Shown here in pieces: positions 14,980 through 52,625 of a DNA stretch of 64,000 nucleotides. The stretch spans positions 20,158 through 84,157 of the forward strand of contig DAOSUS010000004.1 in NCBI GenBank assembly GCA_035378955.1, given 5' to 3'. The translations under genes and the position numbers were made by a program. Source of the DNA: Candidatus Hydrogenedens sp. (GTDB lineage Bacteria > Hydrogenedentota > Hydrogenedentia > Hydrogenedentales > Hydrogenedentaceae). The first letter of the stretch is position 1, and each line of letters begins with the position of its first letter. The notes under the pieces are model-generated. The model was not told where the DNA came from, ran no database searches, and saw only the letters and a program-made list of their open reading frames with translations.

Positions 14980-16764
14980 ATGAGTATATTTAAATCTATT
15001 GCGGAATGGCGAAAAGAAATTCCTGAAAATTACAGAAGTGAACGGGTTGAACTTATCGAGAAACGCAAGGGTATAAAAACGATTCGAGTTGGAGGGCTTC
15101 TTTATCACAGTCAATATAACCCCACAGAAGAAGCAAAAAAATTAATAGAAGCATCCTCTCTGGACAAAAAACGACCCGTCGTTGCTATCGGTTTGGGATT
15201 GGGGTATCATATACAGGAACTTATACAAAAAGAATACAAAGTTATTGTTATTGAACCTGATAAAGATATTGCATTTACCGCCATTCAAAATAACCTATTG
15301 CCTGATGATTTATTACTCGCTATTCCTGATACATTGGATTATCTTTTTAATGATTCTTTTTTTAAGGACTATCTCGATAAAATACCGCAACCTTTTTTTC
15401 ATCCTGTTGTCAGCCGTATCTATTCTGAATTTTGCGAGACATTAATCAAACGAATATCTCGGGAATGCTTCGACCGACAGCATTTCAATATTGCGATTGT
15501 AGGTCCTATGTATGGAGGCTCCCTTCCTATCACACGATATTTAAATCGGGCTTTTCGAAAATTAGGACATCAAACACTTCTTGTAGATACAGAAATAGCG
15601 TGGAATGTCTTTAATTCTATAGGCAAGACTTTGAAAACTCCCAAAATGGCTCACTCACTCGAAGATTTTTACACCAAGTTTCTTTCGGAATGGTGTCTGG
15701 CTCAGGTAATAGAATTCCAGCCAGAGATTTGTATTGTTATGGCACAGGCTCCAGTTACAAATTTATTCGTTTCGAGGTTAAATGAGCGAGGAATTGTAAC
15801 TGCATTCTGGTTTGTAGAAAATTGGCGACATCTTAGTTATTGGAAGGAAATAGCTCCCTTTTATAATTTATTTTTTCATATTCAACCTGGTGAGTTTGAT
15901 AACAAACTGGATGCTATCGGTTGCCATTGTCATTTTCCCATATTTACAGCCTGCGACCCGGAACTCCATGCCCCTGTTTCTTTAAGCCCTGATGAGGAGA
16001 AGATATATAAGTGCGACTTATCTTTCGCAGGGGCAGGATATTATAACCGTATCAAAATGTTGAAGGGACTTACGGATTACAATTTAAAAATCTGGGGTGT
16101 AAACTGGAATGAATTGGAACTACTTCCTCATGTAGTAGAAGGAAATAAAGGATTTGATACAGAAGAATATATGAAAATTGTAGCCGGTTCAAAAATTAAT
16201 CTAAATCTTCATTCCAGTGTTATTCATGAAGGAGTTGACCCCGATGCTGATGCTATTAATCCACGAGTATTCGAAATCGCCTCTGCAGGCGGATTTCAAC
16301 TTTGTGACCCCTGTAAAGGATTAGAGGATTTGTTTGATACCCAAAATGAAATCCCTACCTACACCGACCTGAAAACACTTCGGGATAAAATAGATTACTT
16401 TTTGAAACATGAGGAAGAAAGACAACAGATAGCCCAAAATGCTCAAAAATGAGCCTTGAAGGAACATACTTACGAACACCGTGCTAATCAAATGTTGGAT
16501 TATATTAAAGAATTTTTTGGTGGGAAAATCATGAGGAAGGGAATGCGTATACAGAGGACTGTCGGAGAAATTATTGAACGATATGGGAAAAATAGCCCTC
16601 TGGGGCAATGGCTTGCAACATTACCTCAAGATATACCCTTTTTACAGGAAGAAATTAATAAACATTTACCTATATTGGATGATAATACTCCATTTCCTGT
16701 TCAAGTATTTTGGTATCTGAATGAAGTTCGTGTTTTTGGTGAAAATTTATTGAGGGAGAAATAA
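14980..16764 (+). pseudogene. Maf-like N-terminus + CgeB-type glycosyltransferase interrupted by one in-frame TGA (16450-16452)
   Basis: LYHSQYNPTEEA..GLGLGYH N-terminus and NPRVFEIASAGGFQL. The frame reads AQK*ALKEHTYEHR straight into the 16456..16764 ORF. Confidence 0.8.
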
Positions 16765-16766
16765 CG

Positions 16767-18467
16767 GTGAAAATACTCATTTTGCAGACGGCAAGAATTG
16801 GAGATACGATACAGACCACTCCTCTATTTCGTCAAATTCGAACAAAATATCCGCATGCCCATATTACTGTGATGATACGAGCGATGAGTGAAGAGGTTAT
16901 TAAAGCCAATCCTGATGTAAACGATTATATTATTTACCATGAAGACCCTATTTTTTCAGATATGATTGCTCGAGATTCTGACCGATATATGAATGCCTAT
17001 AAAGAAGTGGAAAAATTAATCCTTGATTTGCGGCAACGAAACTTTGACATTGCTTACAACATAACACATAGCACCTCATCTGCTTTGCTTTTAAAATTGG
17101 CTCAAATTCCTAAGGTTATCGGGGCTCATTTGTCTGAAGATTGGCAATTTACATTAAGGGGACCCTGGACTGTTTATTTTTTCACCAGTGTTCTTTCACG
17201 GGATTACAATGATTTAAACCTATGCGATATATTTAAACTCTATGAATCTATCCCGGAACCTGTAAAAGAACTTGTTTTTGAGGTGAATTCCAATGCTATG
17301 GAATTTACAGACCATCTTTTTGCAGAATATCACATCGAACCGGAAGATTTTGTTGTATGTATGCAATTGGGTGCCAGTGAAGCCAACAAACGCTGGCCTG
17401 CAGAATATTTTGCTCAATTAGGGAAAAAATTGCATGAAAAATACAAGGCACGGATATTTCTCGTAGGGGTGCCATCAGAGGCAGAATTGGGTCAGAAATT
17501 TCAAAGGGAAGTTCCGGGTCTTGCAATTCCACTTTTTGGGAAAACGACCATACCTCAGTTGGCAGGGCTATTAAAACGCTCCCATTTATTAGTAACTAAT
17601 GATACAGGGACAATGCACCTTGCATCCGCTGTGAAATGTCCTGTAATGCTTGTATCCGTTGGTTATGTGCACTTTCGTGAAACAGGTCCTTATGGCAGGG
17701 GAAATTGTGCTATCGAATTAAGGGAACGCTCTTTTAAAATGGATATTTCTTCAAAATCTTCAGAGGTTCATCCTTTAGATAGGATACAACCCGAACAGGT
17801 CCTTAAAGCAATCGAATGGCTGTTTTCCATGCGTGAGAAAAAACAATTAGTCCAACATGAACTTACACCGGATATGGATAATGTCAATGTTCACATCTCG
17901 GAATTTGCCCCTGATGGTTGTTTACAATTCTATCCTGTTATTCGGCGGGAAATTGATGAAAAAGATTTTCTGCGTTTTGCCTATCGGTTAATGTGGCTGG
18001 AACATCTTAATGTAACCCCACATAAACAAACCGAAATTGAAAATCTCCACAAATTGTTTCAGTATTATATTGCTCCAGATACAAAAACTCTTACTATGTG
18101 GAATAAGGAATTTCGGGGTTCTTTCGAGGAATTGGCAGGAAAGTATAAGCAGGGAATTCATATTACAGAACAGTTAAAAAGCACTATAACCGATGGCAAA
18201 ATTATGAGAGCACGCGAACAAGTCAAATTATTATCAGAAATTGATGAACAAATACGAATATATGGAGAACTCAATTCCTACTTAAAACCTATTACCCTTG
18301 TTACTAAATTCGAACGCGATAATCTGGAAGGGAGTAATCCTCTGGAACTGGCAAAACAGACATTGAACATCTATCGAGGAGGCTATGAGCGTTCAACATT
18401 GATGGCAAAGAAAGTCAAAAAATGTTGTGATTACCTTCAAAACAACGAAAATAGCCTTTTAGAATAA
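16767..18467 (+). CDS. Glycosyltransferase family 9 (heptosyltransferase-like) with a long C-terminal helical extension
   Basis: QTARIGDTIQTTP, QLGASEANKRWP, LVTNDTGTMHLASAV; GTG start. Confidence 0.88.
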   Translation: MKILILQTARIGDTIQTTPLFRQIRTKYPHAHITVMIRAMSEEVIKANPDVNDYIIYHEDPIFSDMIARDSDRYMNAYKEVEKLILDLRQRNFDIAYNITHSTSSALLLKLAQIPKVIGAHLSEDWQFTLRGPWTVYFFTSVLSRDYNDLNLCDIFKLYESIPEPVKELVFEVNSNAMEFTDHLFAEYHIEPEDFVVCMQLGASEANKRWPAEYFAQLGKKLHEKYKARIFLVGVPSEAELGQKFQREVPGLAIPLFGKTTIPQLAGLLKRSHLLVTNDTGTMHLASAVKCPVMLVSVGYVHFRETGPYGRGNCAIELRERSFKMDISSKSSEVHPLDRIQPEQVLKAIEWLFSMREKKQLVQHELTPDMDNVNVHISEFAPDGCLQFYPVIRREIDEKDFLRFAYRLMWLEHLNVTPHKQTEIENLHKLFQYYIAPDTKTLTMWNKEFRGSFEELAGKYKQGIHITEQLKSTITDGKIMRAREQVKLLSEIDEQIRIYGELNSYLKPITLVTKFERDNLEGSNPLELAKQTLNIYRGGYERSTLMAKKVKKCCDYLQNNENSLLE

Positions 18468-18543
18468 AACCTTTTTTTATTTTGTTATAAATCCGAACCT
18501 TAAAGATGAGAAAATTGTAACTATACAAAAAGGAGTATAAGTT

Positions 18544-19146: not shown

Positions 19147-19149
19147 CGA

Positions 19150-30147: not shown

Positions 30148-30152
30148 AATAT

Positions 30153-30181
30153 TTGACAAATGTGTAAAAAAAGATTATAAT
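30153..30181 (+). promoter_or_regulatory. Perfect-consensus sigma70 promoter
   Basis: TTGACA-N17-TATAAT, 45 nt upstream of the 30227 CDS. Confidence 0.85.
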
Positions 30182-30226
30182 AACATCTCATCATAAAATT
30201 TAAATATTAAACATGGGGTATGAGAT

Positions 30227-30685: not shown

Positions 30686-30692
30686 ATACACA

Positions 30693-31517: not shown

Positions 31518-31535
31518 ATATCGAGAATTCAATAC

Positions 31536-41387: not shown

Positions 41388-41397
41388 ACTAATAATT

Positions 41398-42210
41398 CTA
41401 CTGGTCTGAAGCATTATTTGTTTCTTCTCGTATTGCTTGCTGCAGTCTTTGTATGTTTGCTTTCAAGGAAGCCAATTCATCGTCAATCGTTTCTGATACT
41501 TCGGGCATTTTTGAAGAACTCTGGGATTGAATTCTCGTTTCTACATCATCTAAAACCTTACTAAATGTCTTTTTTGTATAAGCGGAGTCGGTAATATCTT
41601 CATTTGCAATAGAAACAAAAAATTCGTCCTCCGGAAAAACAAATAACAAACTCATACGGTCTCCAGAAATACCTAAAACAAAAACTTTTCCTGCACTTTG
41701 GACATAATAAATCTTTATGCGTGGAGATAAATAAAGAACACCTACAATTTTTCCAATAGATTTTACCCCTCGATATGTTTTGTTTGAAAAATAGCGAAGT
41801 CCTCCTAATAATACCAGTATCAATCCAACGACAAAGATAAGGGCAACAATCGTTCTAAAGAAATAATATATCCATGAATTTCCCGTTGTAGATGTATTAG
41901 AGCTACCTGTAGGGAGACTTTCTCCTTCTGTGTTTCCTGTATTTGTGGGTTCCGAACCCCAAACTGCCTGATGTTGTGAAAACCATGTGTTTGTTTTAGA
42001 GGATGCATTTTCCTTCTCAAGGGGTGTTTCTACATTTTTTACGGGTTTAGCCCCTTCACTATTTTTTTCTATATATTGTTCAGGATTTTTTAATTTATCC
42101 AGAACATTTTCTTTTTCAGTGGGAGCTGTATTTTCAGCAAAAATATATAAGCCAGAAAAAAATAGAAACAGAAATGCAATAATCCAAAAAACATTTTTTT
42201 TATTCTTCAT
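41398..42210 (-). CDS. fliO: FliO/FliZ family protein with a periplasmic N-terminal extension
   Basis: TM segment then LYLSPRIKIYYVQSAGKVFVLGISG; position between fliN and fliP. Confidence 0.75.
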   Translation of the reverse strand: MKNKKNVFWIIAFLFLFFSGLYIFAENTAPTEKENVLDKLKNPEQYIEKNSEGAKPVKNVETPLEKENASSKTNTWFSQHQAVWGSEPTNTGNTEGESLPTGSSNTSTTGNSWIYYFFRTIVALIFVVGLILVLLGGLRYFSNKTYRGVKSIGKIVGVLYLSPRIKIYYVQSAGKVFVLGISGDRMSLLFVFPEDEFFVSIANEDITDSAYTKKTFSKVLDDVETRIQSQSSSKMPEVSETIDDELASLKANIQRLQQAIREETNNASDQ

Positions 42211-42535
42211 CTCTTTTATATCCTTCAATCTCCACTATGCGAATATGTAAGATATCGGCTAAGACTATCATCTCTCCCCTGCCTATAAGAACATTGTTAA
42301 AAAATATGTCTGCCAATTCACCTGCTTGTTTACTTAATGTAACGATAGAGCCTTTGTCCAATTTCAAAATATCCCTTATTTTTATAGAACATCTTCCTAA
42401 TTCCGCATCCACATGAATAGGAATCATGGCTAAATCATTTAAAGTAAGATGAACCGTGGAAGGGGAAGATTCTTTTTCTAAGTTTTCCTCAGGAACAAAA
42501 TCGGAAATATTTTCAGAATTTTGTATAGCCATCAT
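42200..42535 (-). CDS. fliN: FliN-like (SpoA domain) motor switch protein
   Basis: IPIHVDAELGRCSIKIRDILKLDKGSIVTL..GELADI..GRGEMIV. Confidence 0.85.
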   Translation of the reverse strand: MMAIQNSENISDFVPEENLEKESSPSTVHLTLNDLAMIPIHVDAELGRCSIKIRDILKLDKGSIVTLSKQAGELADIFFNNVLIGRGEMIVLADILHIRIVEIEGYKRDEE

Positions 42536-43080
42536 TATAAATCCACAATGGTATATTTAAGATACATTACTTCAAGGATAGAGCCTTTAACTCCAGGAGA
42601 TAACTTATTTAATAATTGATTTGCTTCATTTTTTGTTTGTCTTAATAGTGCTTCCTGGACGCCGGGGTCATTAAGTTCGGTTCGTGTGCGATTTCGATGT
42701 ATTTTGTTTATCAATGCAGTAAAATACTCCTTTTTCCCTTCAATTACAGCAGATACCTCAGGTCCAGAGCAGGACATGGCCACCTGATAAATCAGCAAGG
42801 GTGCTGGAGCATCGGATTTTTGTGTAATTACTGTTGCTTGCGTTTCATCAAACTTTACGATTACTGCTGTTGCTGGTATTATATCTGTCGTATCGGTATT
42901 TACAGAAGAACTCTTTTCCTCTGTATTATCGGTTAATAGCATAGGTCGTAAAACAAATATGAACACAACAATTGCACTAATCGATGGAATTAGCACACTT
43001 GCTCCTCCTATTAGGAGCAATTTCACAAGGCTTGATGATTTTTTTTGTCCCTGTTGTTCTGGTGCTTTTTCATCCGCCAT
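42535..43080 (-). CDS. fliL: Flagellar basal body-associated protein FliL
   Basis: N-terminal TM anchor, typical length, position after motB. Confidence 0.75.
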   Translation of the reverse strand: MADEKAPEQQGQKKSSSLVKLLLIGGASVLIPSISAIVVFIFVLRPMLLTDNTEEKSSSVNTDTTDIIPATAVIVKFDETQATVITQKSDAPAPLLIYQVAMSCSGPEVSAVIEGKKEYFTALINKIHRNRTRTELNDPGVQEALLRQTKNEANQLLNKLSPGVKGSILEVMYLKYTIVDL

Positions 43081-43158
43081 AAGAATTATTCCTTCTATCT
43101 TTATATCTTCATTATATATTCATTGTAATAATAGAAAAATACATTTTAAAAAATAAAA

Positions 43159-43896
43159 TCAAGGCATCCCCTTTTGTATCATTTCCATTTTTTCCTCACT
43201 TATAAAACCTCGCACAAAAATTTCAACTCGTCGGTTTTCTTTTCTTCCTTCTTCTGTTAAATTCGTTGAAATAGGCTGACTTGAACCACAAGCCGTTATT
43301 TCAAACATTTCAGGAGTAAGAGAACTAACAGCAAGCATTTTCCGCATAACCTGGTCTGAGCGATAATAACTTAAATCATAATTATCTCTGTATTTGGGAT
43401 TATTCACTATAGGTGTATTATCTGTATGTCCCTTTATTTCTATAAAAACATCCGTAAGTTCTCCCAATATTTTTGATATAGATTCAATGATAGGAAACGA
43501 TTCGGGTTTCAGGTCTGCACTTCCTTTATCGAATAAAATAGAGTCGGGAAAGGTTATTTTTATCCCTCCTTTTGCATCGTATTCAACTTTAACCTGTTTT
43601 TCCTGTCCCATTACTTGTAACTCTTCGGCTATTTTTTGGGCTGCCTGTTGCATTTTCCTTTCTTGTTCTCTTCGATTCATCATTTGCATATCCAAAACAC
43701 CTGGATTTTTAGGTAGAACACTGAAAGCTCCCTCAAGAGAACCCATCGCTTTTTTAAAGTCTTTTTCACTTATGGTAGAGAAAGAAACTAAAAGAATAAA
43801 AAAGGTCAGGAGCAAACTCATCATATCCCCATAAGTGACCACCCATCCAGGGGCACCTCCTTCTCCTTCAGGCTGTTTTTTTCTTTCTTTTCCCAT
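43159..43896 (-). CDS. motB: Flagellar motor stator protein MotB
   Basis: WVVTYGDMMSLLLTFF with the conserved Asp; OmpA-like GHTD..LS..R..ENRRVEI. Confidence 0.95.
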   Translation of the reverse strand: MGKERKKQPEGEGGAPGWVVTYGDMMSLLLTFFILLVSFSTISEKDFKKAMGSLEGAFSVLPKNPGVLDMQMMNRREQERKMQQAAQKIAEELQVMGQEKQVKVEYDAKGGIKITFPDSILFDKGSADLKPESFPIIESISKILGELTDVFIEIKGHTDNTPIVNNPKYRDNYDLSYYRSDQVMRKMLAVSSLTPEMFEITACGSSQPISTNLTEEGRKENRRVEIFVRGFISEEKMEMIQKGMP

Positions 43897-43902
43897 AATC
43901 TT

Positions 43903-44676
43903 CTACTTCTTCCCTGTGATTATCTTTTTTCGCAATTCCGGTGCTATAAATGCTTTCAATTTTTGTTCCACAACGCGTGGGTTATCTCCAGATTGAATGG
44001 ATAAGATTCCTTCTATAATAACTTCTCTTAAAAGCAATTCCTCTGCGGTTCTCACTTTTAGTTTCCCGGCAAGAGGTAACATAATTAAATTAGAAATTAA
44101 TGCCCCATATAATGTTGTTAAAATAGCAACAGCCATACCAATACCAATTTGAGATGGGTCTTCCATTGTAGCAAGCATTTGCACCAAACCAATTAATGTT
44201 CCTATCATTCCAAAAGCAGGAGCGTATGCAGCCATTGCAGTTAGAACGGATTGTCCTAATGCGTGTCGGTCTTCCATAAAAGCCAATTCTGTTGTAAGGA
44301 TATCTTTGAGCAATTCGGGGGCTGTTCCATCAATTGCCAGTTGTATGCCCCGTTGCAAAAATTCATCATCTAATTCTGCTGCAGGTCCTTCGAGAGCAAG
44401 AATACCCTCCCTTCTTGCAATGGTTGCAAATTCAATAATCTTTTCGATTAAAGTTTCTACAGGTGTAAGTTTCTGAATAAATGAATTTTTTACAGTATTA
44501 AACACCTTTAAAACATCACTCAATGGATAATTGATTAGCGTAGATGCGATGGTCCCTCCTACTACAAGGATAACAGAAGGTATATTAATAAAGATTACAA
44601 TTGACCCCCCCATTAAGATTGAAATGAGTGTTAAAGATATTCCAGCAATCAGCCCTATTACAGTTGCTAAATCCAT
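43903..44676 (-). CDS. motA: Flagellar motor stator protein MotA/PomA
   Basis: ARREGILALE, APAFGMIGTLIGLV, ALLTT-like AILTTLYG, EGILSIQSGDNP. Confidence 0.95.
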   Translation of the reverse strand: MDLATVIGLIAGISLTLISILMGGSIVIFINIPSVILVVGGTIASTLINYPLSDVLKVFNTVKNSFIQKLTPVETLIEKIIEFATIARREGILALEGPAAELDDEFLQRGIQLAIDGTAPELLKDILTTELAFMEDRHALGQSVLTAMAAYAPAFGMIGTLIGLVQMLATMEDPSQIGIGMAVAILTTLYGALISNLIMLPLAGKLKVRTAEELLLREVIIEGILSIQSGDNPRVVEQKLKAFIAPELRKKIITGKK

Positions 44677-44796
44677 AGAACTCCTTTTTCTATGACGTTA
44701 TACATGTATATTTCTGATAACTTGTATTAGTATAACACACCTCTTCGTATTTGATTTTAACATGATTGAATCATTTTTTGCTATTACAATTCTACT

Positions 44797-44830
44797 AAAA
44801 AAAAATAGGCTGAGGTTTAAAACCTCAGCC
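44797..44830 (-). terminator. Rho-independent terminator after flgE
   Basis: Hairpin GGCTGAGGTT-TAA-AACCTCAGCC followed on the minus strand by a T9 run. Confidence 0.85.
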
Positions 44831-44877
44831 CAATGGAAAATCAGTTAGATTGGTTGCTAATAAAATCATGTATTAGA

Positions 44878-46137
44878 TTATCTTCCTAAATTGACGGTTT
44901 CCTGTAGAAGTGTATCTGCTGCGGTTATGGTTCGGGCATTCGCCTGAAATCCGCGTTGAGTTACAATTAATGAGCTAAATTCTGTACCTAAGTCAACATT
45001 GGAACTTTCTAAAACGCCACCAGAGACAGTGCCCCTGCTCCCTGAACGTGGAGGACCCACTTGAGCGACACCAGAAGCCGGAGTTTCAAGGAACATATTA
45101 TTTCCATCGCGAACCAATCCACCTACATTGGAAAATGTTGCTAAGGCTACCTGAGCAAAAACGCGGGTAAGTCCATTGCTAAAAACACCCACAATTTCTC
45201 CATTGGACCCTATATTAAAACTTTCAAGGACACCTCTTGGAAAACCATCCTGCGAACGAACTGTAACATCACTACCCGTAGTGCTATCTGTAGCCAATTG
45301 AGTAATCTCCGTAAAATCTAAATTAAATGTCAAATCATTAGGTTGTGAACCTGTGGTATTCATTAATGCTGCGGGAATGGTCACTGTTCCTGTTGTTCCT
45401 GATGGTAATGTGCCGGAAGTGCTGAATGTTAGTGTTCCAGTACCCACGCTATTCCCATCGTATAAGGCTTCCCATGTCCACTGATTCGCAGGGGTTGCCT
45501 GTTTTGTAAATGTTAAAGTAACTTCGCGAGCCGTACCTAAAGAATCATACACTTCTACTGTTCTCGTTACTGTTGTCGGGGTAGGAGATGTAGGAGCATT
45601 GGCATTCAAATTTCCAATTAAGTATACATTAGTAGTAGAACGAACAATCCCTGCACTTCCAATGGGTATAGAAATATCCTGCGGTGGCTGGTTCGTATTC
45701 ACGACTCCTGTATCGTCAGCAATATAGCCTTGCACACGCATACCGGTAGCGGGGTCAATAAGCAATCCGTTTGAGTTTAAATCAAAAGAGCCATCGCGCG
45801 TAAATGCTGTTTTCTGTCCATCGCTCAATACAAAGAATCCATTTCCCTGTATTGCCAAATCCGAAGAAACACCTGTAGACAAAAGGGAACCCTGCTGATG
45901 ATTGACATCAATACTTGCAATACGTACACCTAACCCTACTTGTTGAGGGTTAGAACCTCCGAAATTGCCTACCGGGGCAGAACCTCCCCTTAACAATTGA
46001 GAAAATAAATCCTGAAAAAGGACACGAGAAGAACGGTATCCAACCGTGTTTACATTTGCAATATTGTTTGCAATTACATCCAACCTGCGTTGATGTGATT
46101 GTAAACCTGTCACTGCTGTTAACATTGCCATACCCAT
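44878..46137 (-). CDS. flgE: Flagellar hook protein FlgE
   Basis: AVTGLQ..LDVIANNIANVNTVGY, DLAIQGNGFF, LESSNVDL..QRGFQANAR. Confidence 0.96.
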   Translation of the reverse strand: MGMAMLTAVTGLQSHQRRLDVIANNIANVNTVGYRSSRVLFQDLFSQLLRGGSAPVGNFGGSNPQQVGLGVRIASIDVNHQQGSLLSTGVSSDLAIQGNGFFVLSDGQKTAFTRDGSFDLNSNGLLIDPATGMRVQGYIADDTGVVNTNQPPQDISIPIGSAGIVRSTTNVYLIGNLNANAPTSPTPTTVTRTVEVYDSLGTAREVTLTFTKQATPANQWTWEALYDGNSVGTGTLTFSTSGTLPSGTTGTVTIPAALMNTTGSQPNDLTFNLDFTEITQLATDSTTGSDVTVRSQDGFPRGVLESFNIGSNGEIVGVFSNGLTRVFAQVALATFSNVGGLVRDGNNMFLETPASGVAQVGPPRSGSRGTVSGGVLESSNVDLGTEFSSLIVTQRGFQANARTITAADTLLQETVNLGR

Positions 46138-46206
46138 AGTTATATCTCCTTATGGTTTATTTTTTTATATTAATAACTATTCTTTTCATTTCAAATGAAT
46201 ATCCTT

Positions 46207-46833
46207 TTACTTTGTATTAGTTGGTTCTATGCGGACGCTTTGAACCTGGTTAATAGGAACTTTATTTGAACCTACATTGAAAAGGACAACTCCATTCTCA
46301 ATAGATACTCCATCCACTTTTCCTTTAATAGAGGTGCCCTCTGTTGAAGAACCTTCGATATATCTACCAATCATTTGTTGACTGGCACTCATAGACATTA
46401 ATTGCACATTTTGAGATAAAGTCTGAATTTCTTGTTGCAATGACGCAATATTTGTATTTGTCTTGACAGATTGTTCCAATGCCGAAAATTGAGCCAACTG
46501 GGCAAGCATTTCTGTATTCTGAACCGGTTCTAAGGGGTCTTGATATTGCATTTGCATAACCAGTAATTTTAGAAATGTATCGGAACTTATCTCTCTTGAT
46601 GGTGTCCGGGTTGTTCCTGTGTTATTACTGGTAGATTGTGCTTCGGCAGATTTCGCAATAGATAAACTCTTCGCACCCGTAGACTCCATAACTTTCTTTA
46701 AGTAATCTTGAAGGAGTCCTTTTCTTCTCGCCTGATACAAGGACTGCATTTCCTTTAAAACCTCTGTTCTTTGAGTAGGTGTCGGGGCATTTAATCCCGA
46801 AATATTTGATTTAAATTGAACCATTGCATTCAT
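46207..46833 (-). CDS. flgD: Hook capping protein FlgD
   Basis: FLKLLVMQMQYQDPLEP..LAQLAQFSALEQ. Confidence 0.93.
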   Translation of the reverse strand: MNAMVQFKSNISGLNAPTPTQRTEVLKEMQSLYQARRKGLLQDYLKKVMESTGAKSLSIAKSAEAQSTSNNTGTTRTPSREISSDTFLKLLVMQMQYQDPLEPVQNTEMLAQLAQFSALEQSVKTNTNIASLQQEIQTLSQNVQLMSMSASQQMIGRYIEGSSTEGTSIKGKVDGVSIENGVVLFNVGSNKVPINQVQSVRIEPTNTK

Positions 46834-46845
46834 ATTGTTTCTCCT

Positions 46846-48408
46846 TTATACCCATAAACTTAATGTACCATTATGGTAATCTGAAATGGGTTTTGTTTCT
46901 TCTACTGTTTGTTGTGAATCTCTATTTATGTGATATGAGGTAGGTTCTATTTGAACCTCCCTCGAAAAAGAATGTGAATTAAAATCCTGATTTAACATAA
47001 GGCTTGCTGTCCCTGTTGAAATCACCTGCACATCCTTAACAAAGATACCTTCTTGTTTCAGAACTTCTCTTAATTGAGGTAATCCTTGTGTTAATATTTT
47101 ATGAACATCATTGTTAGAAGTAGTCAGTTGAATCCCGATCTTTCCTGAATTTTCCTGAACCTTAACCTCCATTAATCCTAATGATTCGGGTTCCAATCTT
47201 ATTGTAATTGTCTTTGTTTCTGAGCGAACCGCAAACTTTATCTGTTCTGCCAGAACGGACCTCAGTGAAGATAGGTTAGCAACAACTTCTTTAGGTTCTG
47301 TCGTGATAACAGATAATGTTTTGTCTTGAACTCCTTCATTTCCTATCTTCATGGATTTTTCTGAGAGAATTCCTATTTGAGGGTTCGTATTCGGCAAATC
47401 AGATTTATGTTGTGAACTTGAATTGCTTTGTTCACCTGAATCGGAAATTAACCTTGTTTCTAATACTTTGGAAAGGAGATTGTCTTGATGATTCCCATTT
47501 GCATTATCCGATAAATAGCGCTTTATATATGCCAATATATCCATATATTTCTGTTGTGTGTTTATTTGTGTTTCTACTGCACCACTTTGGATATTTTTAT
47601 CGTTGGATATTTGTCCCAATTTTAACAGCCCCAGTTTTTGCTGTTCTTCAGGATTTACAAGGGTAGATATTTCCATGTTCTTGATGTGTAGTTTATCCTG
47701 AATTTGAGATAAACTCGCTGTCATTACTTCACTTATTTGAGCCAAATCTGCAGGAATAATTATTTTTTGACTATCAGCGGATAGATTTTCTTTTTGCGAA
47801 GAATTTAATTGAGCCGAATTTTTTATTATCACATCTGTCGGCTCTATTGAAGTTAGTTCCAATGGCACTTCTGTAATTTTCTGTCCTAAATCTGTCCCTA
47901 TTTGCAATAATAAATTTTCTTGTATCTCAGGTTTTGAGTAAACATCTAATTTTGCTTCCTTCCCTATTTGCAATAACAAATCATCTTGTGTTTCGGGGGT
48001 GGCAGTAATATCTTGTTTTACCTCTGGCTTTACAAGGGTTAAATCTTTTACTTGCTCATTCTTTTGTTCAACAGTAGAATTGCATTCAATATCTGAAGCA
48101 GGTAATTGTATTATTTCTTCTGCAATACCACCCGTTACATTAGAGGGTAACTCTGTATCAATCGGATTTGCCATAATAGGAGAAATATTTTCTGGCTGTG
48201 CCTCTGAATGGACTTCGGCTTCCATTACAGAATTATTGCTATCCTGCTGAAAAGGTATTGCTGTTAAACCCATTTGTGCCATTAACAAACTCAAAACCTG
48301 TCCAAAATCACTCCCATTAGAGTTTGGATTTTCCCGAGTAGATGTTTCCGTTATCGAGGTTTCCCCGGACACAACAGGGAAAAGGGTATTCATTACACTA
48401 TCAATCAT
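46846..48408 (-). CDS. fliK: Hook-length control protein FliK
   Basis: Long low-complexity N-terminus and C-terminal IRLEPESLG..V.V..L..GLPQLREVL. Confidence 0.88.
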   Translation of the reverse strand: MIDSVMNTLFPVVSGETSITETSTRENPNSNGSDFGQVLSLLMAQMGLTAIPFQQDSNNSVMEAEVHSEAQPENISPIMANPIDTELPSNVTGGIAEEIIQLPASDIECNSTVEQKNEQVKDLTLVKPEVKQDITATPETQDDLLLQIGKEAKLDVYSKPEIQENLLLQIGTDLGQKITEVPLELTSIEPTDVIIKNSAQLNSSQKENLSADSQKIIIPADLAQISEVMTASLSQIQDKLHIKNMEISTLVNPEEQQKLGLLKLGQISNDKNIQSGAVETQINTQQKYMDILAYIKRYLSDNANGNHQDNLLSKVLETRLISDSGEQSNSSSQHKSDLPNTNPQIGILSEKSMKIGNEGVQDKTLSVITTEPKEVVANLSSLRSVLAEQIKFAVRSETKTITIRLEPESLGLMEVKVQENSGKIGIQLTTSNNDVHKILTQGLPQLREVLKQEGIFVKDVQVISTGTASLMLNQDFNSHSFSREVQIEPTSYHINRDSQQTVEETKPISDYHNGTLSLWV

Positions 48409-48497
48409 AAGTTCTCTCCTATAAAAAAAGAAGTTAATATTTCAATAGAAATCAGGAATAGGTTTTGAAATAGATTGTTTTTATTGAGGGATAATTT

Positions 48498-49073
48498 TTA
48501 TGAGGAGGGAGTAGAAGGAGGTTGCACTTTTTGTAGGGCTTGAAGCACCTGTGCTGCTAATTGAGCATCTAAGGCTTCTACAATTTTTCCTCTTTCCTTA
48601 GGTTTGACATAAGAAAGAATTTCTGCAATTTCATCTGGGTTCATTGTTTTCAACCGTTCCGCGGCTTTATCTGGTTTCATACCGCTAAGTGTAACGGCAA
48701 TGGCTTGCATTTGCACGGCCTTTTCTTTTTTATCCTCTCCTAATTTTGAACTAAGTTCTTTTTGAATGGACTCTATTTTCGACTGCATCTGTTGTAATTC
48801 TTGAGATTTTGCTTTTATTTCTTCCTCTTTTTTCTGTATTTCCTCTTCTTTCTGTTTTAATGAGGCTTCTTTTTTCTGTATTTGCTCAATTAATGTGGCA
48901 ATGGTATCTTCTTGAACATTGGATTGAGGTATTGTTACTTTTTGAGTGGCAGGTGAAGGGGACACTAACTTCTGAAGTGATTCTTTGGACAAATTGCCGG
49001 TAACAGCTAATATTCCTACCAGTGTCCCTACAAAAGATATTACTGCTAATATAATAATCAAGAGAAATCGCAT
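48498..49073 (-). CDS. MotE/YlxF-like flagellar protein (TM + coiled coil + MgtE_N-like domain)
   Basis: GMKPDKAAERL..EIAEIL..RGKIVEALD; sits between fliJ and fliK. Confidence 0.75.
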   Translation of the reverse strand: MRFLLIIILAVISFVGTLVGILAVTGNLSKESLQKLVSPSPATQKVTIPQSNVQEDTIATLIEQIQKKEASLKQKEEEIQKKEEEIKAKSQELQQMQSKIESIQKELSSKLGEDKKEKAVQMQAIAVTLSGMKPDKAAERLKTMNPDEIAEILSYVKPKERGKIVEALDAQLAAQVLQALQKVQPPSTPSS

Positions 49074-49110
49074 ATTTTTATTTCCTATATTTCGACACCA
49101 TGCTTTTATA

Positions 49111-49569
49111 TCATAGGGCTTCTTTAATCTTCATTAAAAATCGTGTTCCACTTAAATCATCTGTATTCTTTTGAATTTCCTTTTGAACCCAGTTACGAAA
49201 AACTTTTTCTCTATTCTCTCTCAATTTTTGGAGCATTTTTTCTTCTATCATAATTTGCTCCAATTCTTTTCTTTGCGTATTGGCTATATCTTCTAATTCG
49301 CTTTTCTTCTTCTCTAACAACTCTTTTTGCTTACCTAAAAATACAATATATTCAAAGGAATCTGAAATTTCTTTTACTTTCTGTGATTTTTTTTGCATGG
49401 TTTGAATTTGCGACATGTTGTCTTTTTGTAATTGTTCTGTGTTTTCTATTTCCTTTTCAATATTCTGTATTTTCATCAATGTTTCCGCTAATTTTTGGGC
49501 ACATAATTGTTCTTGTGTTTTACGAATTCTTATTAAGGGGTCATAACGCTGAAAGTCTCTTCGGTTCAT
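49111..49569 (-). CDS. fliJ: Flagellar export chaperone FliJ
   Basis: 152-aa coiled coil directly after fliI; EEKMLQKLRE. Confidence 0.78.
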   Translation of the reverse strand: MNRRDFQRYDPLIRIRKTQEQLCAQKLAETLMKIQNIEKEIENTEQLQKDNMSQIQTMQKKSQKVKEISDSFEYIVFLGKQKELLEKKKSELEDIANTQRKELEQIMIEEKMLQKLRENREKVFRNWVQKEIQKNTDDLSGTRFLMKIKEAL

Positions 49570-49574
49570 AACAA

Positions 49575-50885
49575 CTAACTGAGTGCCTCCTTCATTAGTG
49601 GTAGTATTTGGTCCCAGTGAACCTTTTCATACAAATCCTGGGTTAAAAATTTTCTTATTTTCGGCATGAGCCGTAGTGCTTCATCAATCTCTTTATTTGA
49701 CCCGGTAACATAAGCCCCGATATTTACCAAATCTTCTGCATCACGATAAGTAGCCAGAATATTTCGTATCTTATTCGAAAGGAGCCGATGTTCGGGTGAT
49801 GTAACTTCTATCATGGAACGACTAATACTTTCTAAAACATCTACCGCGGGATAATGTCCACGCGAAGCCAGATTCCGTGATAGAGAAATATGTCCATCGG
49901 TAATACTTCGAACAGCATCTCCTATAGGGTCATTCAAATCATCTGCTTCCACAAGGACTGTATAAAAACCTGTTATAGTTCCTTTTTCGGATGTTCCTAC
50001 CCGTTCTAAAATACGGGGCAAAAGACTGAACACGGAAGGGGTATATCCTTTCGTAGTTGGAGGTTCTCCGATAGATAAGCCTACCTCTCGTTGTGCCATG
50101 GCAAACCTTGTTATAGAATCCATCATCAACAATACATCGGCACCCTGGTCGCGAAAATATTCGGCAATGGTTGTCGCCACAAAACCTGCACTAATTCGCC
50201 TTAATGCAGATTCATGAGATGTCGCAACGACAACCACCGACCTTTTTATTCCTTCTTCACCTAAATCTAAATCAATAAATTCGCGAACTTCTTTCCCTCG
50301 TTCTCCCACAAGGGCGATAACATTTATATCTGCACTGGTATTTCGTGCAATCATACCAATCAATTTGCTTTTCCCAACTCCACTCCCTGAAAGAATCGCT
50401 ACACGCTGTCCTTTACCACAGGTAGCACACCCATCGATAGATTTTATACCTGTTGCTAATGGTTCTGTGATACGAGGACGGAATACGGCAGATGGAGGAT
50501 TTGTATATAGAGACCTTTTTTCATTGACTTTAGGGAAAGGTTTCCCATCTATAGGATTACCGAGAGCATCAATAACCCTTCCCAGAAAGGCATCTCCAAC
50601 AGGAACTTTTCTCGATTGAAAAGTTGGAATTAAAATATAGTCAGGTCCTAAACCTTGAACTTCGTCCAGAGGCATTACAAGGTAATGGTCATTCCGAAAA
50701 CCTACCACTTCCACAGGTATTAAATTTTTCCTATCCCTTGATGATATATAACATAGGTCCCCAATTCTCATTTCCGGACCACTAACTTCAATCGTTAGCC
50801 CCGTAATATTCTTCACCTTGCCACAAATATGAAACGGCTCTGTTTTTTGAACAATATCTATATAGGGCTTAAATGTCAACACCAT
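49575..50885 (-). CDS. fliI: Flagellar export ATPase FliI
   Basis: GSGVGKS, ALVGERGKEV, LLMMDSITRFA, GEPPTTKGY; probable ATG at 50885 after GAGGG. Confidence 0.96.
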   Translation of the reverse strand: MVLTFKPYIDIVQKTEPFHICGKVKNITGLTIEVSGPEMRIGDLCYISSRDRKNLIPVEVVGFRNDHYLVMPLDEVQGLGPDYILIPTFQSRKVPVGDAFLGRVIDALGNPIDGKPFPKVNEKRSLYTNPPSAVFRPRITEPLATGIKSIDGCATCGKGQRVAILSGSGVGKSKLIGMIARNTSADINVIALVGERGKEVREFIDLDLGEEGIKRSVVVVATSHESALRRISAGFVATTIAEYFRDQGADVLLMMDSITRFAMAQREVGLSIGEPPTTKGYTPSVFSLLPRILERVGTSEKGTITGFYTVLVEADDLNDPIGDAVRSITDGHISLSRNLASRGHYPAVDVLESISRSMIEVTSPEHRLLSNKIRNILATYRDAEDLVNIGAYVTGSNKEIDEALRLMPKIRKFLTQDLYEKVHWDQILPLMKEALS

Positions 50886-51567
50886 TTTCCCTCGCAAGGC
50901 TAACAATTTTTTCAACAATTAATTCTAATCGTGAAGATATTTGATTATCTAGGAACTGTGTTTTTGTTTCTGCTATACATCCTCCCCTTTCTATCCTTTC
51001 ATCGGGAACCCAAATAACCTTTTGCATTATATTTTCATCCCCTATTCGGGACTTAATTTCATCCTCAATAATTGAATAATCATCTGGATGAATGTGTAAA
51101 GAAATCTCCTGACTATCAATAAATTGCTCTAATGTTTCTTTTACAATTGTTTTAACAATATCCGAATTTGTTTGAACTTGAGCAGAGATTACTTTTTCAG
51201 AAATTTGAAAAACCAATTTGAGGATTTGAGGGGTTATTTGTTCCAAAAAATTAGTTCTTGCTTGAGTAATTTTTTCTATACTTTCTTGAAGAATTTTATT
51301 CGTTTCCTCAAGGAACTGTTGGAATTCCTGTTCTGCTAATAATTTTCCCTCATTATATCCTTCTTCATAGGCTTTTTGTTTAATTTTCTCTGCTTCCTGT
51401 TGAGCTTGCTCTAAAATCATAGTACGCAATTCTTCCGGAGAATATATACTTAAAGGGTCATCGGATATCTCTCTTTCTTTAGGGAACTCTTTCAAATCAT
51501 CCCGAGATAAAAACTTTACCTCGGCATTTTCCGCAATAACTTTTTGTGTTTTTTTAAATTGAGACAT
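50869..51567 (-). CDS. fliH: Flagellar assembly protein FliH
   Basis: AYEEGYNEG AxxxG repeats, HPDD, DERIERGGC. Confidence 0.9.
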   Translation of the reverse strand: MSQFKKTQKVIAENAEVKFLSRDDLKEFPKEREISDDPLSIYSPEELRTMILEQAQQEAEKIKQKAYEEGYNEGKLLAEQEFQQFLEETNKILQESIEKITQARTNFLEQITPQILKLVFQISEKVISAQVQTNSDIVKTIVKETLEQFIDSQEISLHIHPDDYSIIEDEIKSRIGDENIMQKVIWVPDERIERGGCIAETKTQFLDNQISSRLELIVEKIVSLARENGVDI

Positions 51568-51587
51568 AGGTATATTTATCCTGATTG

Positions 51588-52625
51588 CTAAACAAGAATT
51601 TCTTCTCCTCCACCTTCTCCTCTTCCCGTAATAATAAGGTCACCTGATTCTTCTAATCGACGTATAACCGCCACAATTCTTTGCTGTGCCTCTTCCACAT
51701 TTTTCAGTCGAACAGGACCCATAAACTCAATTTCTTCTTTTAACATCTCACGAGCACGCTCGGACATATTTTTGAATATTTTTTCTTTTACTTCATCAGT
51801 GGACGACTTCAATGCTAACGCTAAATCTTTAGAATCAATTTCCCGTAATGCCTTTTGAATACCTGCATCATCCACATAAACTAAATCATCAAAAGTGAAC
51901 ATCAACTTATTAATTTCATTTGCTAAATCTGCGTCTCTTTCTTGTAATTTTTCCATAATATTCTTTTCCGCAGAGCGTTCAACAAGATTAAGTATTTCTG
52001 CTACCTCTTTCACACCTCCAGCAAAAGTAAATCCTTGGGTAAATACAGCTGCCATCTTTCGTTCCAGCACATGTTCTACTTCATGAATAATTTCGGGAGC
52101 AGTTCGGTCCATAGTTGCAATTCGATAAATCACATCGGTTTGGGTTTCAGGAGGCAATGAAGAAAGAGCCAGGGCAGAAACTTTGGGTTCAAGATGGGCT
52201 AATATCAAAGCGATGGTTTGAGGATGCTCTTCTTGAATAAAACTACTAATCTGGGCAGGGTCCGCTTTCTTCAAAAATTGGAAGGGGACTTCTTGCAAAG
52301 AGCTTTACAAACGACCTAATATCTCTACGGCTTTTTGTGCACCAAAAGATTTCTCTAATAATTCCTTTGCTAATTCTATACCTCCCTCAGCCACAAATCG
52401 TTTTGCTTCTGCCATCTGAAAAAACTCGTCAAATACTTTTGCTTTTATTTCTGGGTCAATCGTTCCCATAGAGGCAATATCCAGTGTCAGGCGGTCAATC
52501 TCTGCTTCTCTTAAATGTGCAAGAATATTACTGGCATGTTCGGGTCCCAAACATGCCAGCAGTATTGCCGCTTTTTTACGACCTGTTAATTTTTCGGGTT
52601 CTTTTGTATCTTTTTTCGGTGCCGT
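51588..52625 (-). pseudogene. fliG: Motor switch protein FliG with an ACG start and an in-frame TAA at codon 107
   Basis: One 346-codon frame: (ACG)APKKDTKEPEKLTGRKKAAILL...ILGRL*SSLQEVPF..EEHPQTIALIL..MFTFDDL..MGPVRL..VEEAQ. Confidence 0.88.

What the first reader, a model, noticed from the sequence alone, without database searches (positions are those of the whole stretch)
14980..52625. Four C/T-repairable lesions in otherwise pristine genes: incipient motility loss, assembly noise or transcript-level repair
Seen: TGA at 16450, TGA at 33894, TAA at 52307 and ACG at 52625, with no frameshift or deletion that I could find. Three of the four fall in flagellum-related genes. Known: transitions are the commonest route to nonsense codons, so early pseudogenisation or consensus error is the default explanation. 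The same set (ACG to AUG, UGA to CGA, UAA to CAA) is also the signature of C/U RNA editing in fern and hornwort organelles, which is not known in bacterial mRNA. Inferred: most likely a lineage caught just after relaxation of selection on motility. Editing or readthrough has a low prior but is cheap to test.
Basis: partly seen in the sequence, partly recalled or inferred. Interest (0 to 1): 0.68.

Follow-up and report, generated by a model that had tools for sequence, protein, structure and literature searches.

The report
Three fresh nonsense mutations; conserved ACG start
In this Candidatus Hydrogenedens genome three genes, including the flagellar rotor gene fliG, carry very recent real C-to-T stop mutations found in only one sludge lineage, while the odd ACG at the start of fliG is not damage: it is conserved across the phylum and probably serves as a non-standard start codon.

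Summary
All four sites are in the sequence as described, but they are two unrelated phenomena.

**Three stop codons.** TGA 16450, TGA 33894 and TAA 52307 are recent C-to-T nonsense mutations of CGA, CGA and CAA.
- The stop alleles are in the window and in an independent assembly of one activated-sludge run (X1).
- Every other near-identical population that covers the fliG site (X2-X8) or the glycosyltransferase site (X2-X6, X8, L163-L165) has the sense codon in its DNA. Only a relative 92% identical in DNA covers the galactokinase site.
- So this is neither assembly noise nor a need for U-to-C editing.
- The surrounding substitutions show ordinary purifying selection and no deaminase-like bias.
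- Only fliG is clearly a motility gene. One gene is a putative flagellin-glycosylation enzyme and one is a galactokinase.

**The ACG.** ACG 52625 is ancient.
- It is invariant in all 10 Hydrogenedens-genus sequences.
- It stands 1-5 nt (once 12 nt) after the fliF stop in at least 32 of 73 non-redundant Hydrogenedentota junctions, and there no ATG, GTG or TTG lies upstream of the conserved, translated N-terminus.
- A Shine-Dalgarno sequence lies 6-9 nt upstream. Sister lineages carry ATG, GTG or TTG in the same slot.
- Two metatranscriptome contigs read ACG, not AUG.
- It is most likely a native ACG initiation codon used by termination-reinitiation after fliF. I found no report of this.

The parts
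14980..16764 (+). Gene A: 594-codon CgeB-type glycosyltransferase (Glyco_trans_1_2 and DUF3880, with a weak Maf N-terminal domain), interrupted at codon 491.
   Evidence: Pfam. The read-through is 100% identical to the intact 594-aa protein P0121, and more than 100 homologues are about 590 aa long. The neighbourhood is fliW-csrA-DUF8042-GT/MT/TPR-geneA-GT9.
16450..16452 (+). TGA nonsense codon derived from CGA (Arg491) by C-to-T.
   Evidence: X1 has T like the window. X2, X3, X4, X5, X6 and X8 have C, and so do loci L163-L165.
33708..35060 (+). Galactokinase / GalNAc-kinase-like GHMP kinase, 450 codons, interrupted at codon 63.
   Evidence: Pfam GalKase_gal_bdg, GHMP_kinases_N and GHMP_kinases_C. 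For the 95%-identical homologue P0001, TIGR00131 galactokinase scores above its cut-off.
33894..33896 (+). TGA nonsense codon at a position that is Arg in relatives (CGA in the closest one).
   Evidence: The X1 contig is identical to the window here. L081 and L082 (92% nt identity) have CGA, and 103 of 120 homologues have R in this column.
51588..52625 (-). fliG (rotor/switch protein), 345 codons from ACG to TAG.
   Evidence: Pfam FliG_N, FliG_M and FliG_C. It is colinear with L001-L003 orthologues at 95-97% aa identity.
52305..52307 (-). TAA nonsense codon at fliG codon 107, derived from CAA (Gln, invariant in the phylum). It lies at the boundary between the FliG_N and FliG_M domains.
   Evidence: X1 has the same allele as the window. 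X2-X8 all have G on the + strand, which reads CAA. All 23 Hydrogenedentota loci have CAA or CAG.
52623..52625 (-). ACG, the proposed native initiation codon of fliG.
   Evidence: The only near-cognate codon between the upstream in-frame stop (52646-52644) and the conserved LTGRKKAAILLACLGP. It is invariant in 10 of 10 genus sequences, while the codons downstream vary synonymously. It is conserved across the phylum. It is unchanged in X1-X5 DNA and in X15 and X16 RNA contigs.
52635..52639 (-). AGGAG Shine-Dalgarno sequence, lying inside the last fliF codons, 9 nt upstream of the ACG.
   Evidence: Read directly from the sequence. Equivalent GAGGA or AGGAG motifs sit 6-9 nt upstream of the ACG in distant lineages.
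52627..54183 (-). fliF (MS-ring protein). Its stop TAA at 52629-52627 ends 1 nt before the ACG.
   Evidence: Pfam YscJ_FliF and YscJ_FliF_C; sequence.
40590..55648 (-). Flagellar operon: flgB, flgC, fliE, fliF, fliG, fliH, fliI, fliJ, an flbB-like gene, fliK, flgD, flgE, motA, motB, a probable fliL, fliN, fliO and fliP. All are intact apart from fliG.
   Evidence: Pfam and NCBIfam. tblastn against L001-L003 shows full-length orthologues from flgB to fliN/fliO without stops; fliP lies beyond those loci.
52529..52561 (-). Stable RNA hairpin (15-bp stem) within fliG codons about 21-36, of unknown role.
   Evidence: Free energy -25.6 kcal/mol, z-score -5.3. It is kept in 9 genus sequences, with 3 covarying pairs.

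Best explanation
The finding combines two independent things.

**(1) Three recent loss-of-function mutations.** In one bioreactor/sludge lineage of Candidatus Hydrogenedens (the window plus run X1), ordinary C-to-T transitions turned CGA into TGA in a CgeB/Maf-like glycosyltransferase, CGA into TGA in a galactokinase, and CAA into TAA in fliG. The mutations are real in DNA and very young. They most likely give null or strongly hypomorphic alleles. The fliG stop separates the FliF-binding N-domain from the M and C domains, so the lineage is probably non-motile although the rest of the operon is still intact. That these genes were dispensable in this habitat is an inference.

**(2) A native ACG start codon.** The ACG at the head of fliG is the gene's normal initiation codon in much of the phylum Hydrogenedentota. 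It sits 1-5 nt after the fliF stop and behind a strong Shine-Dalgarno sequence encoded by the acidic C-terminus of FliF. I infer that ribosomes finishing fliF reinitiate on ACG with initiator tRNA. That would tie FliG synthesis to FliF synthesis, while the weak codon suppresses independent initiation.

What is shown: the conservation of the ACG, the absence of any canonical start, the Shine-Dalgarno spacing, and the exchange with ATG, GTG or TTG in the same slot. What is inferred: the reinitiation mechanism and the identity of the N-terminal residue.
For: **Stops**
- The window and X1 share all three stop alleles. They still differ at two other sites (one of them 52671), so the assemblies are not identical.
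- X2-X8 carry CAA at 52307.
- X2-X6 and X8 carry CGA at 16450, as do L163-L165 at 99.5-99.6% nt identity.
- The closest galactokinase locus has CGA, and 103 of 120 homologues have Arg.
- Gln107 of FliG is invariant, CAA or CAG, in 23 loci.
- The read-throughs are colinear with intact homologues.
- Over 21.8 kb there are 87 substitutions against the sister strains: 50 synonymous, 29 non-synonymous and 8 intergenic. The spectrum is symmetric (34 GC-to-AT versus 28 AT-to-GC transitions), and the window branch is not significantly different from its sister branch.

**ACG**
- In 32 of 73 non-redundant Hydrogenedentota junctions (plus about 4 more with a canonical codon further downstream), ACG at +1 to +5 nt (once +12) after the fliF stop is the only start candidate.
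- 18 junctions have ATG, GTG or TTG in the same slot.
- All 36 scorable non-Hydrogenedentota junctions have canonical starts.
- ACG makes up 0.57% of codons and 10.6% of Thr codons in the window, yet it is 10 of 10 invariant at codon 1. Codons 13-23 vary synonymously, with Arg16 using six codons.
- fliG is the only gene in the window without an early canonical start.
- The offset between the fliF stop and the ACG falls in all three frames (+1, +3, +4, +5), which argues against a fusion made by frameshift or readthrough.
- RNA contigs X15 and X16 read ACG.
- In E. coli, ACG initiates at roughly 0.1-1% of AUG and yields Met (with some Thr) at the N-terminus. It is not among the annotated bacterial start codons (bioRxiv 10.1101/063800).
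Against: **Stops**
- No RNA or protein data cover the three stops.
- Basal UGA readthrough could leave some activity.
- The window may have been assembled from X1's own reads, so 'two datasets' may really be one population sampled once.
- The galactokinase lies in a variable island, and the nearest relative there is only 92% identical in DNA. The recency of that mutation is therefore less certain.
- With only three events, 'dispensable genes' cannot be separated from drift or a bottleneck.

**ACG**
- There is no N-terminal peptide or ribosome-profiling evidence.
[quoted passage not shown] - The junction counts are not phylogenetically independent.
- One RNA-library contig (X25) shows an unexplained 76-nt skip that removes the ACG and places a TTG directly behind the fliF stop.
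Confidence: 0.72

Rival explanations
1. Assembly or consensus noise: the stop codons are errors of the assembly and the organism has the sense codons.
For: The depth in X1 is low, about 7-8. The window may derive from the same data.
Against: An independent Logan assembly of X1 reproduces all three stop alleles over long error-free contigs, with 0-1 differences per 1.5-6 kb. All three errors would have to be C-to-T changes that create stops, and nothing else in 21 kb would be wrong. Illumina consensus errors at 8x depth are not expected to behave like this.
Confidence: 0.03
2. Transcript-level repair by pyrimidine RNA editing: U-to-C at the stops and C-to-U at ACG, as in fern and hornwort organelles.
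For: All four sites could be repaired by a C/U exchange. A conserved ACG start is the classic picture of an edited start codon in plastids. No RNA covers the three stops.
Against: The stops are lineage-specific derived alleles, and sister populations encode the sense codon in DNA. An editing system would therefore have had to pre-exist for sites that did not need it. RNA contigs from two metatranscriptomes read ACG at the fliG start. No lineage has ATG replacing the ACG codon itself in the way edited sites commonly revert. Instead, other canonical codons appear in the slot. From background knowledge, C-to-U or U-to-C mRNA editing is not known in bacteria.
Confidence: 0.03
3. Programmed recoding of the stops, by selenocysteine, a suppressor tRNA or high-level readthrough, so that the genes stay functional.
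For: Two of the three stops are UGA, the leakiest stop. One is followed by A (UGA-A).
Against: Relatives have Arg (CGA) and not Cys or Sec at both UGA sites. The third stop is UAA-A, a strong terminator. TAA, TAG and TGA all end ordinary genes in the window, at 44, 9 and 5 genes respectively. The only tRNAs in the window are Leu, Cys and Leu.
Confidence: 0.03
4. The three nonsense mutations reflect genome-wide relaxed selection, from a bottleneck, drift or hitch-hiking in a clonal reactor population, and not loss of selection on motility specifically.
For: Only one hit is certainly a motility gene, and another is a galactokinase. The window branch has a slightly higher ratio of non-synonymous to synonymous changes (13 including the stop, against 13) than the sister branch (11 against 18). 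Relative to synonymous changes, nonsense changes survive about as well as missense changes on this branch (a rough estimate).
Against: The difference between the branches is not significant. Overall pN/pS is about 0.2. The other 55 or so genes in the window are intact.
Confidence: 0.3
5. FliG does not start at ACG. Either it is made as a FliF-FliG fusion by stop-codon readthrough or +1 frameshifting, or it starts at the downstream TTG (52550) as an N-terminally truncated protein.
For: From background knowledge, FliF-FliG fusions are functional in Salmonella. The AGGAG lying 2 nt before the last fliF sense codon, followed by a stop, resembles the prfB frameshift site. The X25 contig joins the fliF stop directly to that TTG.
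Against: The offset from the fliF stop to the ACG occupies all three frames in different lineages, while the ACG itself is constant. GAG-to-AGU re-pairing is poor for a +1 slip. Codons 13-25 upstream of the TTG are under clear amino-acid-level selection. The Leu26 codon is not conserved as TTG: it is CTG 23 times, TTG 15, CTT 13 and CTC 10. The lost helix belongs to the FliF-binding FliG_N domain (Pfam residues 12-115).
Confidence: 0.08

Closest known systems
Young pseudogenes made by nonsense mutation, including loss of motility in laboratory, host or reactor-adapted bacteria
   Same: A single transition creates a premature stop in an otherwise intact gene. The sense allele is present in sister strains. 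The flagellar regulon is a frequent target.
   Different: Only one essential motor gene is hit. The other two genes are a surface-sugar glycosyltransferase and a galactokinase. No phenotype data are available.
Non-canonical bacterial initiation codons (AUU of infC and pcnB; the CUG, AUA and AUC starts of table 11)
   Same: A conserved near-cognate codon lies behind a good Shine-Dalgarno sequence at the position where homologues have AUG, GUG or UUG. Its weakness is plausibly used for regulation.
   Different: The codon is ACG, a mismatch at the second position. ACG is not in translation table 11 and was not among the annotated starts in the survey of 10.1101/063800. It is conserved across much of a phylum in one specific gene.
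Translational coupling by termination-reinitiation at overlapping or closely spaced stop and start codons (Huber et al. 2019, PMC6728339; review PMC12548453)
   Same: The stop of the upstream gene and the start of the downstream gene are 1-5 nt apart. The Shine-Dalgarno sequence lies inside the upstream gene. The two products are subunits of one complex in 1:1 ratio (FliF and FliG).
   Different: The described cases use ATGA, TGATG or other canonical starts. A search of these two papers for ACG or non-canonical start codons found nothing. Coupling has not been tested here.
ACG-to-AUG start-codon editing in plant organelles (for example ndhD and psbL)
   Same: A genomic ACG is conserved at the start of a conserved protein-coding gene.
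   Different: This is a bacterium. The RNA contigs show ACG unedited. No editing factors are known in bacteria. The three stop codons are not conserved sites.

Membership tests
Recent nonsense pseudogene | Sense codon at the same position in close relatives | tested here: met
   16450 is CGA in X2-X6, X8 and L163-L165. 52307 is CAA in X2-X8. 33894 is CGA in L081 and L082, and R in 103 of 120 homologues.
Recent nonsense pseudogene | The stop allele is present in the sequenced DNA and is not a consensus error | tested here: met
   An independent Logan assembly of X1 carries all three stops at depth of about 7-8. Raw reads were not available.
Recent nonsense pseudogene | Loss of the full-length protein or of function | not testable with these tools
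   No proteome or phenotype data exist, and no RNA contig covers the stops.
C/U RNA editing (plant-organelle type) | The transcript differs from the DNA at the site (C in DNA, U in RNA) | tested here: not met
   The X15 and X16 metatranscriptome contigs read ACG at 52623-52625, at depth of about 2. Partial editing is not excluded. The stop sites are not covered.
C/U RNA editing (plant-organelle type) | Edited sites are conserved or replaced by the edited base in relatives' DNA | tested here: not met
   The stops are derived and specific to one lineage. The ACG is not replaced by ATG at the same codon in any of 73 junctions, although other canonical codons occupy the slot.
Selenocysteine or programmed UGA recoding | Cys or Sec at the UGA position in homologues, together with a SECIS element | tested here: not met
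   Homologues have Arg at both UGA positions. No Rfam hit other than tRNAs was found in the window.
Non-canonical initiation codon | No canonical start between the upstream in-frame stop and the conserved, translated N-terminus | tested here: met
   In the window, six non-start codons precede the ACG, and the first canonical codon is TTG at codon 26, inside a conserved helix. Codons 13-23 vary synonymously, so they are translated.
Non-canonical initiation codon | Shine-Dalgarno sequence at initiation distance | tested here: met
   AGGAG lies 9 nt upstream in the window. GAGGA or AGGAG lies 6-9 nt upstream in distant lineages.
Non-canonical initiation codon | Nucleotide-level conservation of the codon, and replacement by canonical starts in homologous positions | tested here: met
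   ACG is invariant in 10 of 10 genus sequences and in at least 32 of 73 phylum junctions. 18 junctions have ATG, GTG or TTG in the slot. In the outgroup control, 36 of 36 are canonical.
Non-canonical initiation codon | The protein N-terminus maps to the codon | not testable with these tools
   This needs N-terminal proteomics or start-site ribosome profiling.
Termination-reinitiation coupling | Stop and start overlap or are only a few nucleotides apart | tested here: met
   The offsets are +1, +3, +4 and +5 nt, and +12 in one case.
Termination-reinitiation coupling | Downstream translation depends on upstream translation reaching the stop | not testable with these tools
   This needs reporter constructs with premature fliF stops.

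The most novel reading that the evidence does not exclude
The fliF-fliG junction may be remodelled at the RNA level. In one sample (S25), the DNA run is continuous at 186x depth. The metatranscriptome-library contig of the same strain lacks exactly the 76 nt from the base after the fliF stop up to fliG codon 26. This removes the ACG and puts a canonical TTG directly behind the stop and the Shine-Dalgarno sequence. If this is a real RNA processing and ligation event and not a chimera made during reverse transcription or ligation, or a rare DNA variant, it would be a spliced-like bacterial mRNA that makes an alternative FliG isoform.
Probability: 0.04. Interest if true: 0.95.

Novelty: new member of a known kind. 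Interest (0 to 1): 0.5.

Why it matters
**The nonsense mutations.** On their own they are ordinary. They give a clean natural snapshot of a motile thermophile lineage at the moment it loses FliG in a reactor habitat. They also warn that MAG 'pseudogenes' can be real alleles.

**The ACG.** This is the more useful result.
- A second-position near-cognate codon, which E. coli uses at about 0.1-1% of AUG, appears to be the selected start of an essential, stoichiometric motor protein across much of a phylum. It is always placed within a few nucleotides of the stop of the partner gene.
- It offers a natural test of whether reinitiating ribosomes are more tolerant of start-codon mismatches than de novo 30S initiation.
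- It offers a test of whether weak starts are used to enforce 1:1 coupled synthesis of interacting subunits.
- It has a practical consequence. Gene callers limited to table-11 start codons have no full-length start to choose for fliG in these genomes: the ORF listing begins the ORF at the TTG, 25 codons into the gene.

Tried and rejected
- **Exact-protein look-up of FliF** to find the source contig: not on record.
- **RNA at the stop sites**: X11, X15 and X16 contigs do not cover 16450 or 33894, and none covers 52307. X26-X28 hold nothing from the locus.
- **Deaminase or hypermutator signature**: rejected. The spectrum against sister strains is symmetric, both overall and on the polarised window branch.
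- **Alternative genetic code**: rejected. TAA, TAG and TGA all terminate ordinary genes.
- **Selenocysteine**: rejected, because relatives have Arg.
- **General use of ACG starts in this genome**: no other gene in the window lacks an early canonical start.
- **Conserved TTG start at fliG codon 26**: rejected, because the Leu codon varies freely.
- **Known RNA family at the junction**: none. The only hit is a chance-level sRNA match, E = 0.76. In the whole window, Rfam finds only tRNAs.
- **RNA structure bridging the two ends of the 76-nt skip**: not found. A strong hairpin lies downstream instead.
- **Literature**: searches found no report of an ACG start for fliG, or of translation oddities in Hydrogenedentes.
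- **Outgroup polarisation**: it used a 77%-identical outgroup and is therefore noisy.

Full report
**Organism and setting.** The window (36% GC) belongs to Candidatus Hydrogenedens, phylum Hydrogenedentota (formerly NKB19).
- The best matches among species-representative genomes are Ca. H. terephthalaticus JGI OTU-1 (L001, FliG 97% aa) and other Hydrogenedens MAGs.
- L001 is only 90% identical in DNA over 21 kb, so the window is from a different species.
- Public runs holding near-identical sequence come from activated or digester sludge, hot springs, microbial mats and sediments.
- Positions 40.6-55.6 kb (- strand) hold a flagellar operon: flgB, flgC, fliE, fliF, fliG, fliH, fliI, fliJ, an flbB-like gene, fliK, flgD, flgE, motA, motB, a probable fliL, fliN, fliO and fliP.
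- Positions 10.3-18.5 kb hold fliW, csrA, a DUF8042 gene, a 1101-aa glycosyltransferase/methyltransferase/TPR protein, gene A and a GT9 glycosyltransferase.

**Observation.**
- TGA 16450 is codon 491 of a 594-codon CgeB-type glycosyltransferase with a weak Maf N-terminal domain hit.
- TGA 33894 is codon 63 of a 450-codon galactokinase.
- TAA 52307-52305 is codon 107 of fliG, at the boundary between the FliG_N and FliG_M domains.
- ACG 52625-52623 lies one base after the fliF stop.
- Each interrupted reading frame is one gene in relatives. The gene A read-through with Arg491 is 100% identical to the 594-aa protein P0121, and more than 100 homologues are about 590 aa. Galactokinase homologues are about 450 aa. 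fliG orthologues are 345 codons. No indels are involved.

**The three stops are recent, real, lineage-specific C-to-T mutations.** I laid Logan contigs of public runs on the window.
- X1 (activated sludge, 2016) carries T at 16450, is identical to the window across 33894, and has the TAA allele at 52307. It still differs from the window at two other places, one of them 52671.
- X2 (sludge), X3, X7 and X8 (hot springs), X4 (an organism-labelled assembly) and X5 and X6 (sediments) all have G on the + strand at 52307, which reads CAA.
- X2-X6 and X8 have C at 16450, which reads CGA.
- In X6 and X8 the stop site is the only difference from the window in the 230-340 nt laid. The mutations therefore sit on a very short terminal branch.
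- Three longer contigs carrying the intact gene A (L163-L165, 99.5-99.6% nt identity over up to 21.8 kb) also have CGA.
- The galactokinase lies in a variable island. X2-X4 do not align there at 90% likeness or more. The closest relative available (L081/L082, 92% nt) has CGA, and 103 of 120 homologues have Arg.
- Gln107 of FliG is invariant, CAA or CAG, in 23 Hydrogenedentota loci.
- Taken together, assembly noise is very unlikely, and the sense alleles exist as DNA in sister populations. Nothing here calls for U-to-C editing.

**Is this more than background?**
- Against L163-L165 the window shows 87 substitutions in 21.8 kb: 50 synonymous, 29 non-synonymous (one of them the stop) and 8 intergenic. 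That gives pN/pS of roughly 0.2. The spectrum is symmetric, with 34 GC-to-AT and 28 AT-to-GC transitions.
- I polarised the changes with a distant outgroup (77% nt, so noisy). The window branch has 13 synonymous, 12 missense, 1 nonsense and 3 intergenic changes, with 9 GC-to-AT and 11 AT-to-GC transitions. The sister branch has 18 synonymous and 11 missense changes.
- There is therefore no deaminase or mutator signature and no significant genome-wide relaxation of selection.
- Random point changes in these genes would be nonsense 5.1% of the time, and transitions 2.6%. Three nonsense changes among an estimated 85-110 window-branch substitutions in 64 kb means that stops survive about as well as missense changes on this branch. 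That suggests the three genes were dispensable in this habitat, but three events are too few to separate this from drift.
- All other genes examined in the window are intact.
- The FliG stop cuts off the FliF-binding N-domain from the M and C domains. The UAA-A context is a strong terminator, so loss of motility is the likely phenotype (inference). The two UGA alleles could be leaky hypomorphs (background knowledge).

**The ACG is a different matter.**
- *No variation in close relatives.* None of the DNA runs that cover it (X1-X5) varies at 52623-52625.
- *Genus level.* In all 10 genus-level sequences the junction reads GGAGAAGAG-TAA-T-ACG-GCA (in L005 the next codon is a second ACG). The only codons between the upstream in-frame stop and the ACG are non-start codons.
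- *The region is translated.* The first canonical codon downstream, TTG at codon 26 (52550), lies inside the conserved helix LTGRKKAAILLACLGP, which belongs to the FliG_N domain (Pfam residues 12-115). Codons 13-23 vary almost only synonymously: Arg16 uses six codons and Leu13 four. So the region is translated, while codon 1 is ACG in 10 of 10 sequences. Other Thr codons in the same stretch are ACA, ACC or ACT. In the window, ACG is only 10.6% of Thr codons and 0.57% of all codons.
- *Phylum level.* Across GTDB representatives and JGI/ENA metagenome contigs there are 73 non-redundant junctions. In 32 of them (plus about 4 with a canonical codon further downstream), ACG at +1, +3, +4 or +5 nt (once +12) after the fliF stop is the only start candidate. 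In 18 the same slot holds ATG, GTG or TTG. About a dozen have their own spacer with a canonical start. One has ATC. A few junctions in this tally were mis-parsed.
- *Close relatives swap the codon.* For example, L142 (ACG) is a close relative of L132 and L144 (TTG).
- *Ribosome-binding site.* A GAGGA or AGGAG sequence encoded by FliF's acidic C-terminus lies 6-9 nt upstream in all lineages inspected.
- *Control.* All 36 scorable junctions from other phyla have canonical starts.
- *Specific to fliG.* Within the window, fliG is the only real gene without an early canonical start. This is a property of fliG and not of the whole genome.

**How it probably works.**
- The distance from the fliF stop to the ACG falls in all three relative frames in different lineages while the ACG stays constant. 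A FliF-FliG fusion made by readthrough or frameshift therefore cannot be the general mechanism.
- The short stop-to-start distances, the internal Shine-Dalgarno sequence and the 1:1 FliF:FliG partnership match translational coupling by termination-reinitiation (PMC6728339, PMC12548453).
- In E. coli, ACG supports initiation at about 0.1-1% of AUG, with Met and some Thr at the N-terminus. It is absent from annotated start-codon sets (10.1101/063800).
- I therefore propose, as an inference, that ribosomes terminating on fliF reinitiate on ACG, and that the weak codon keeps independent initiation low so that FliG is made next to, and in step with, FliF.

**RNA editing of ACG to AUG.**
- Contigs from two hot-spring-mat metatranscriptomes span the junction and read ACG: X15 covers 52601-52871 and X16 covers 52569-52761.
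- The depth is only about 2 and DNA carry-over cannot be excluded. Complete editing is refuted, but partial editing is not.
- No RNA contig covers any of the three stops.

**Unexplained side observations.**
- *A 76-nt skip.* In sample S25 (an oil-production facility), a library labelled metatranscriptomic (X25) has a 625-nt contig at depth 3.8. It carries the same strain SNP as the DNA. It joins the base after the fliF stop directly to fliG codon 26, skipping 76 nt including the ACG and giving TAA-TTG-GGT. The DNA run of the same sample (X35, a 70-kb contig at depth 186) and two other DNA runs are continuous there. The Leu26 codon is not conserved as TTG, the skipped codons are under protein-level selection, and the X15 and X16 RNA contigs are unskipped. 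I therefore rate a chimera from reverse transcription or ligation, or a rare DNA variant, as most likely.
- *A hairpin.* A very stable hairpin lies inside fliG codons about 21-36 (52561-52529). It has a 15-bp stem, a free energy of -25.6 kcal/mol and a z-score of -5.3. It is retained across the genus with some covariation. The right end of the skip falls in its 5' arm.

**Verdict.**
It is partly wrong: the ACG is not a lesion, and there is no evidence for editing.
- The stops are ordinary biology.
- The conserved ACG start of fliG appears to be unreported and is moderately interesting for translation-initiation research.

Noticed in passing
L001:9997-10072 (equivalent to window 52626-52551, - strand): A contig from a metatranscriptome-labelled run (X25) skips exactly 76 nt, from just after the fliF stop to fliG codon 26 (TTG). 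The DNA run of the same sample (X35, depth 186) is continuous there. It could be a chimera, a rare variant or RNA processing, and remains unresolved.
   Followed up: partly
window 52529-52561 (- strand): A 15-bp perfect hairpin lies inside the fliG coding region. Its free energy is -25.6 kcal/mol and its z-score -5.3. It is conserved in 9 genus sequences with 3 covarying pairs. Its function is unknown.
   Followed up: partly
window about 29100-34900: This is a variable island. Sister strains that are 99.5% or more identical elsewhere are about 91% identical at 29.1-30.3 kb and do not align at 90% beyond about 30.2 kb. The closest galactokinase locus is only 92% identical in DNA. This suggests recombination or gene-cassette exchange.
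   Followed up: partly
window 48498-49073 (- strand) and 11649-14954 (+): There are weak, sub-threshold NCBIfam hits to spirochaete-type periplasmic flagellar collar proteins: FlbB for the first ORF and the FlcA C-terminal TPR region for the second. No fliM, fliQ, fliR, flhA or flhB is in the window.
   Followed up: no
window 52671, 21821 and one site within 15985-19375: The only differences between the window and the same-lineage runs are C:G-to-T:A transitions. X1 has two, both C-to-T, and the X11 RNA contig has one, G-to-A. Three events are too few to interpret.
   Followed up: no
window 52550 (- strand): A caller limited to ATG, GTG or TTG starts fliG at this TTG, as the ORF listing did. 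That truncates FliG by 25 residues and removes part of the FliF-binding N-domain. FliG annotations in Hydrogenedentota MAGs are therefore probably often N-terminally short.
   Followed up: no
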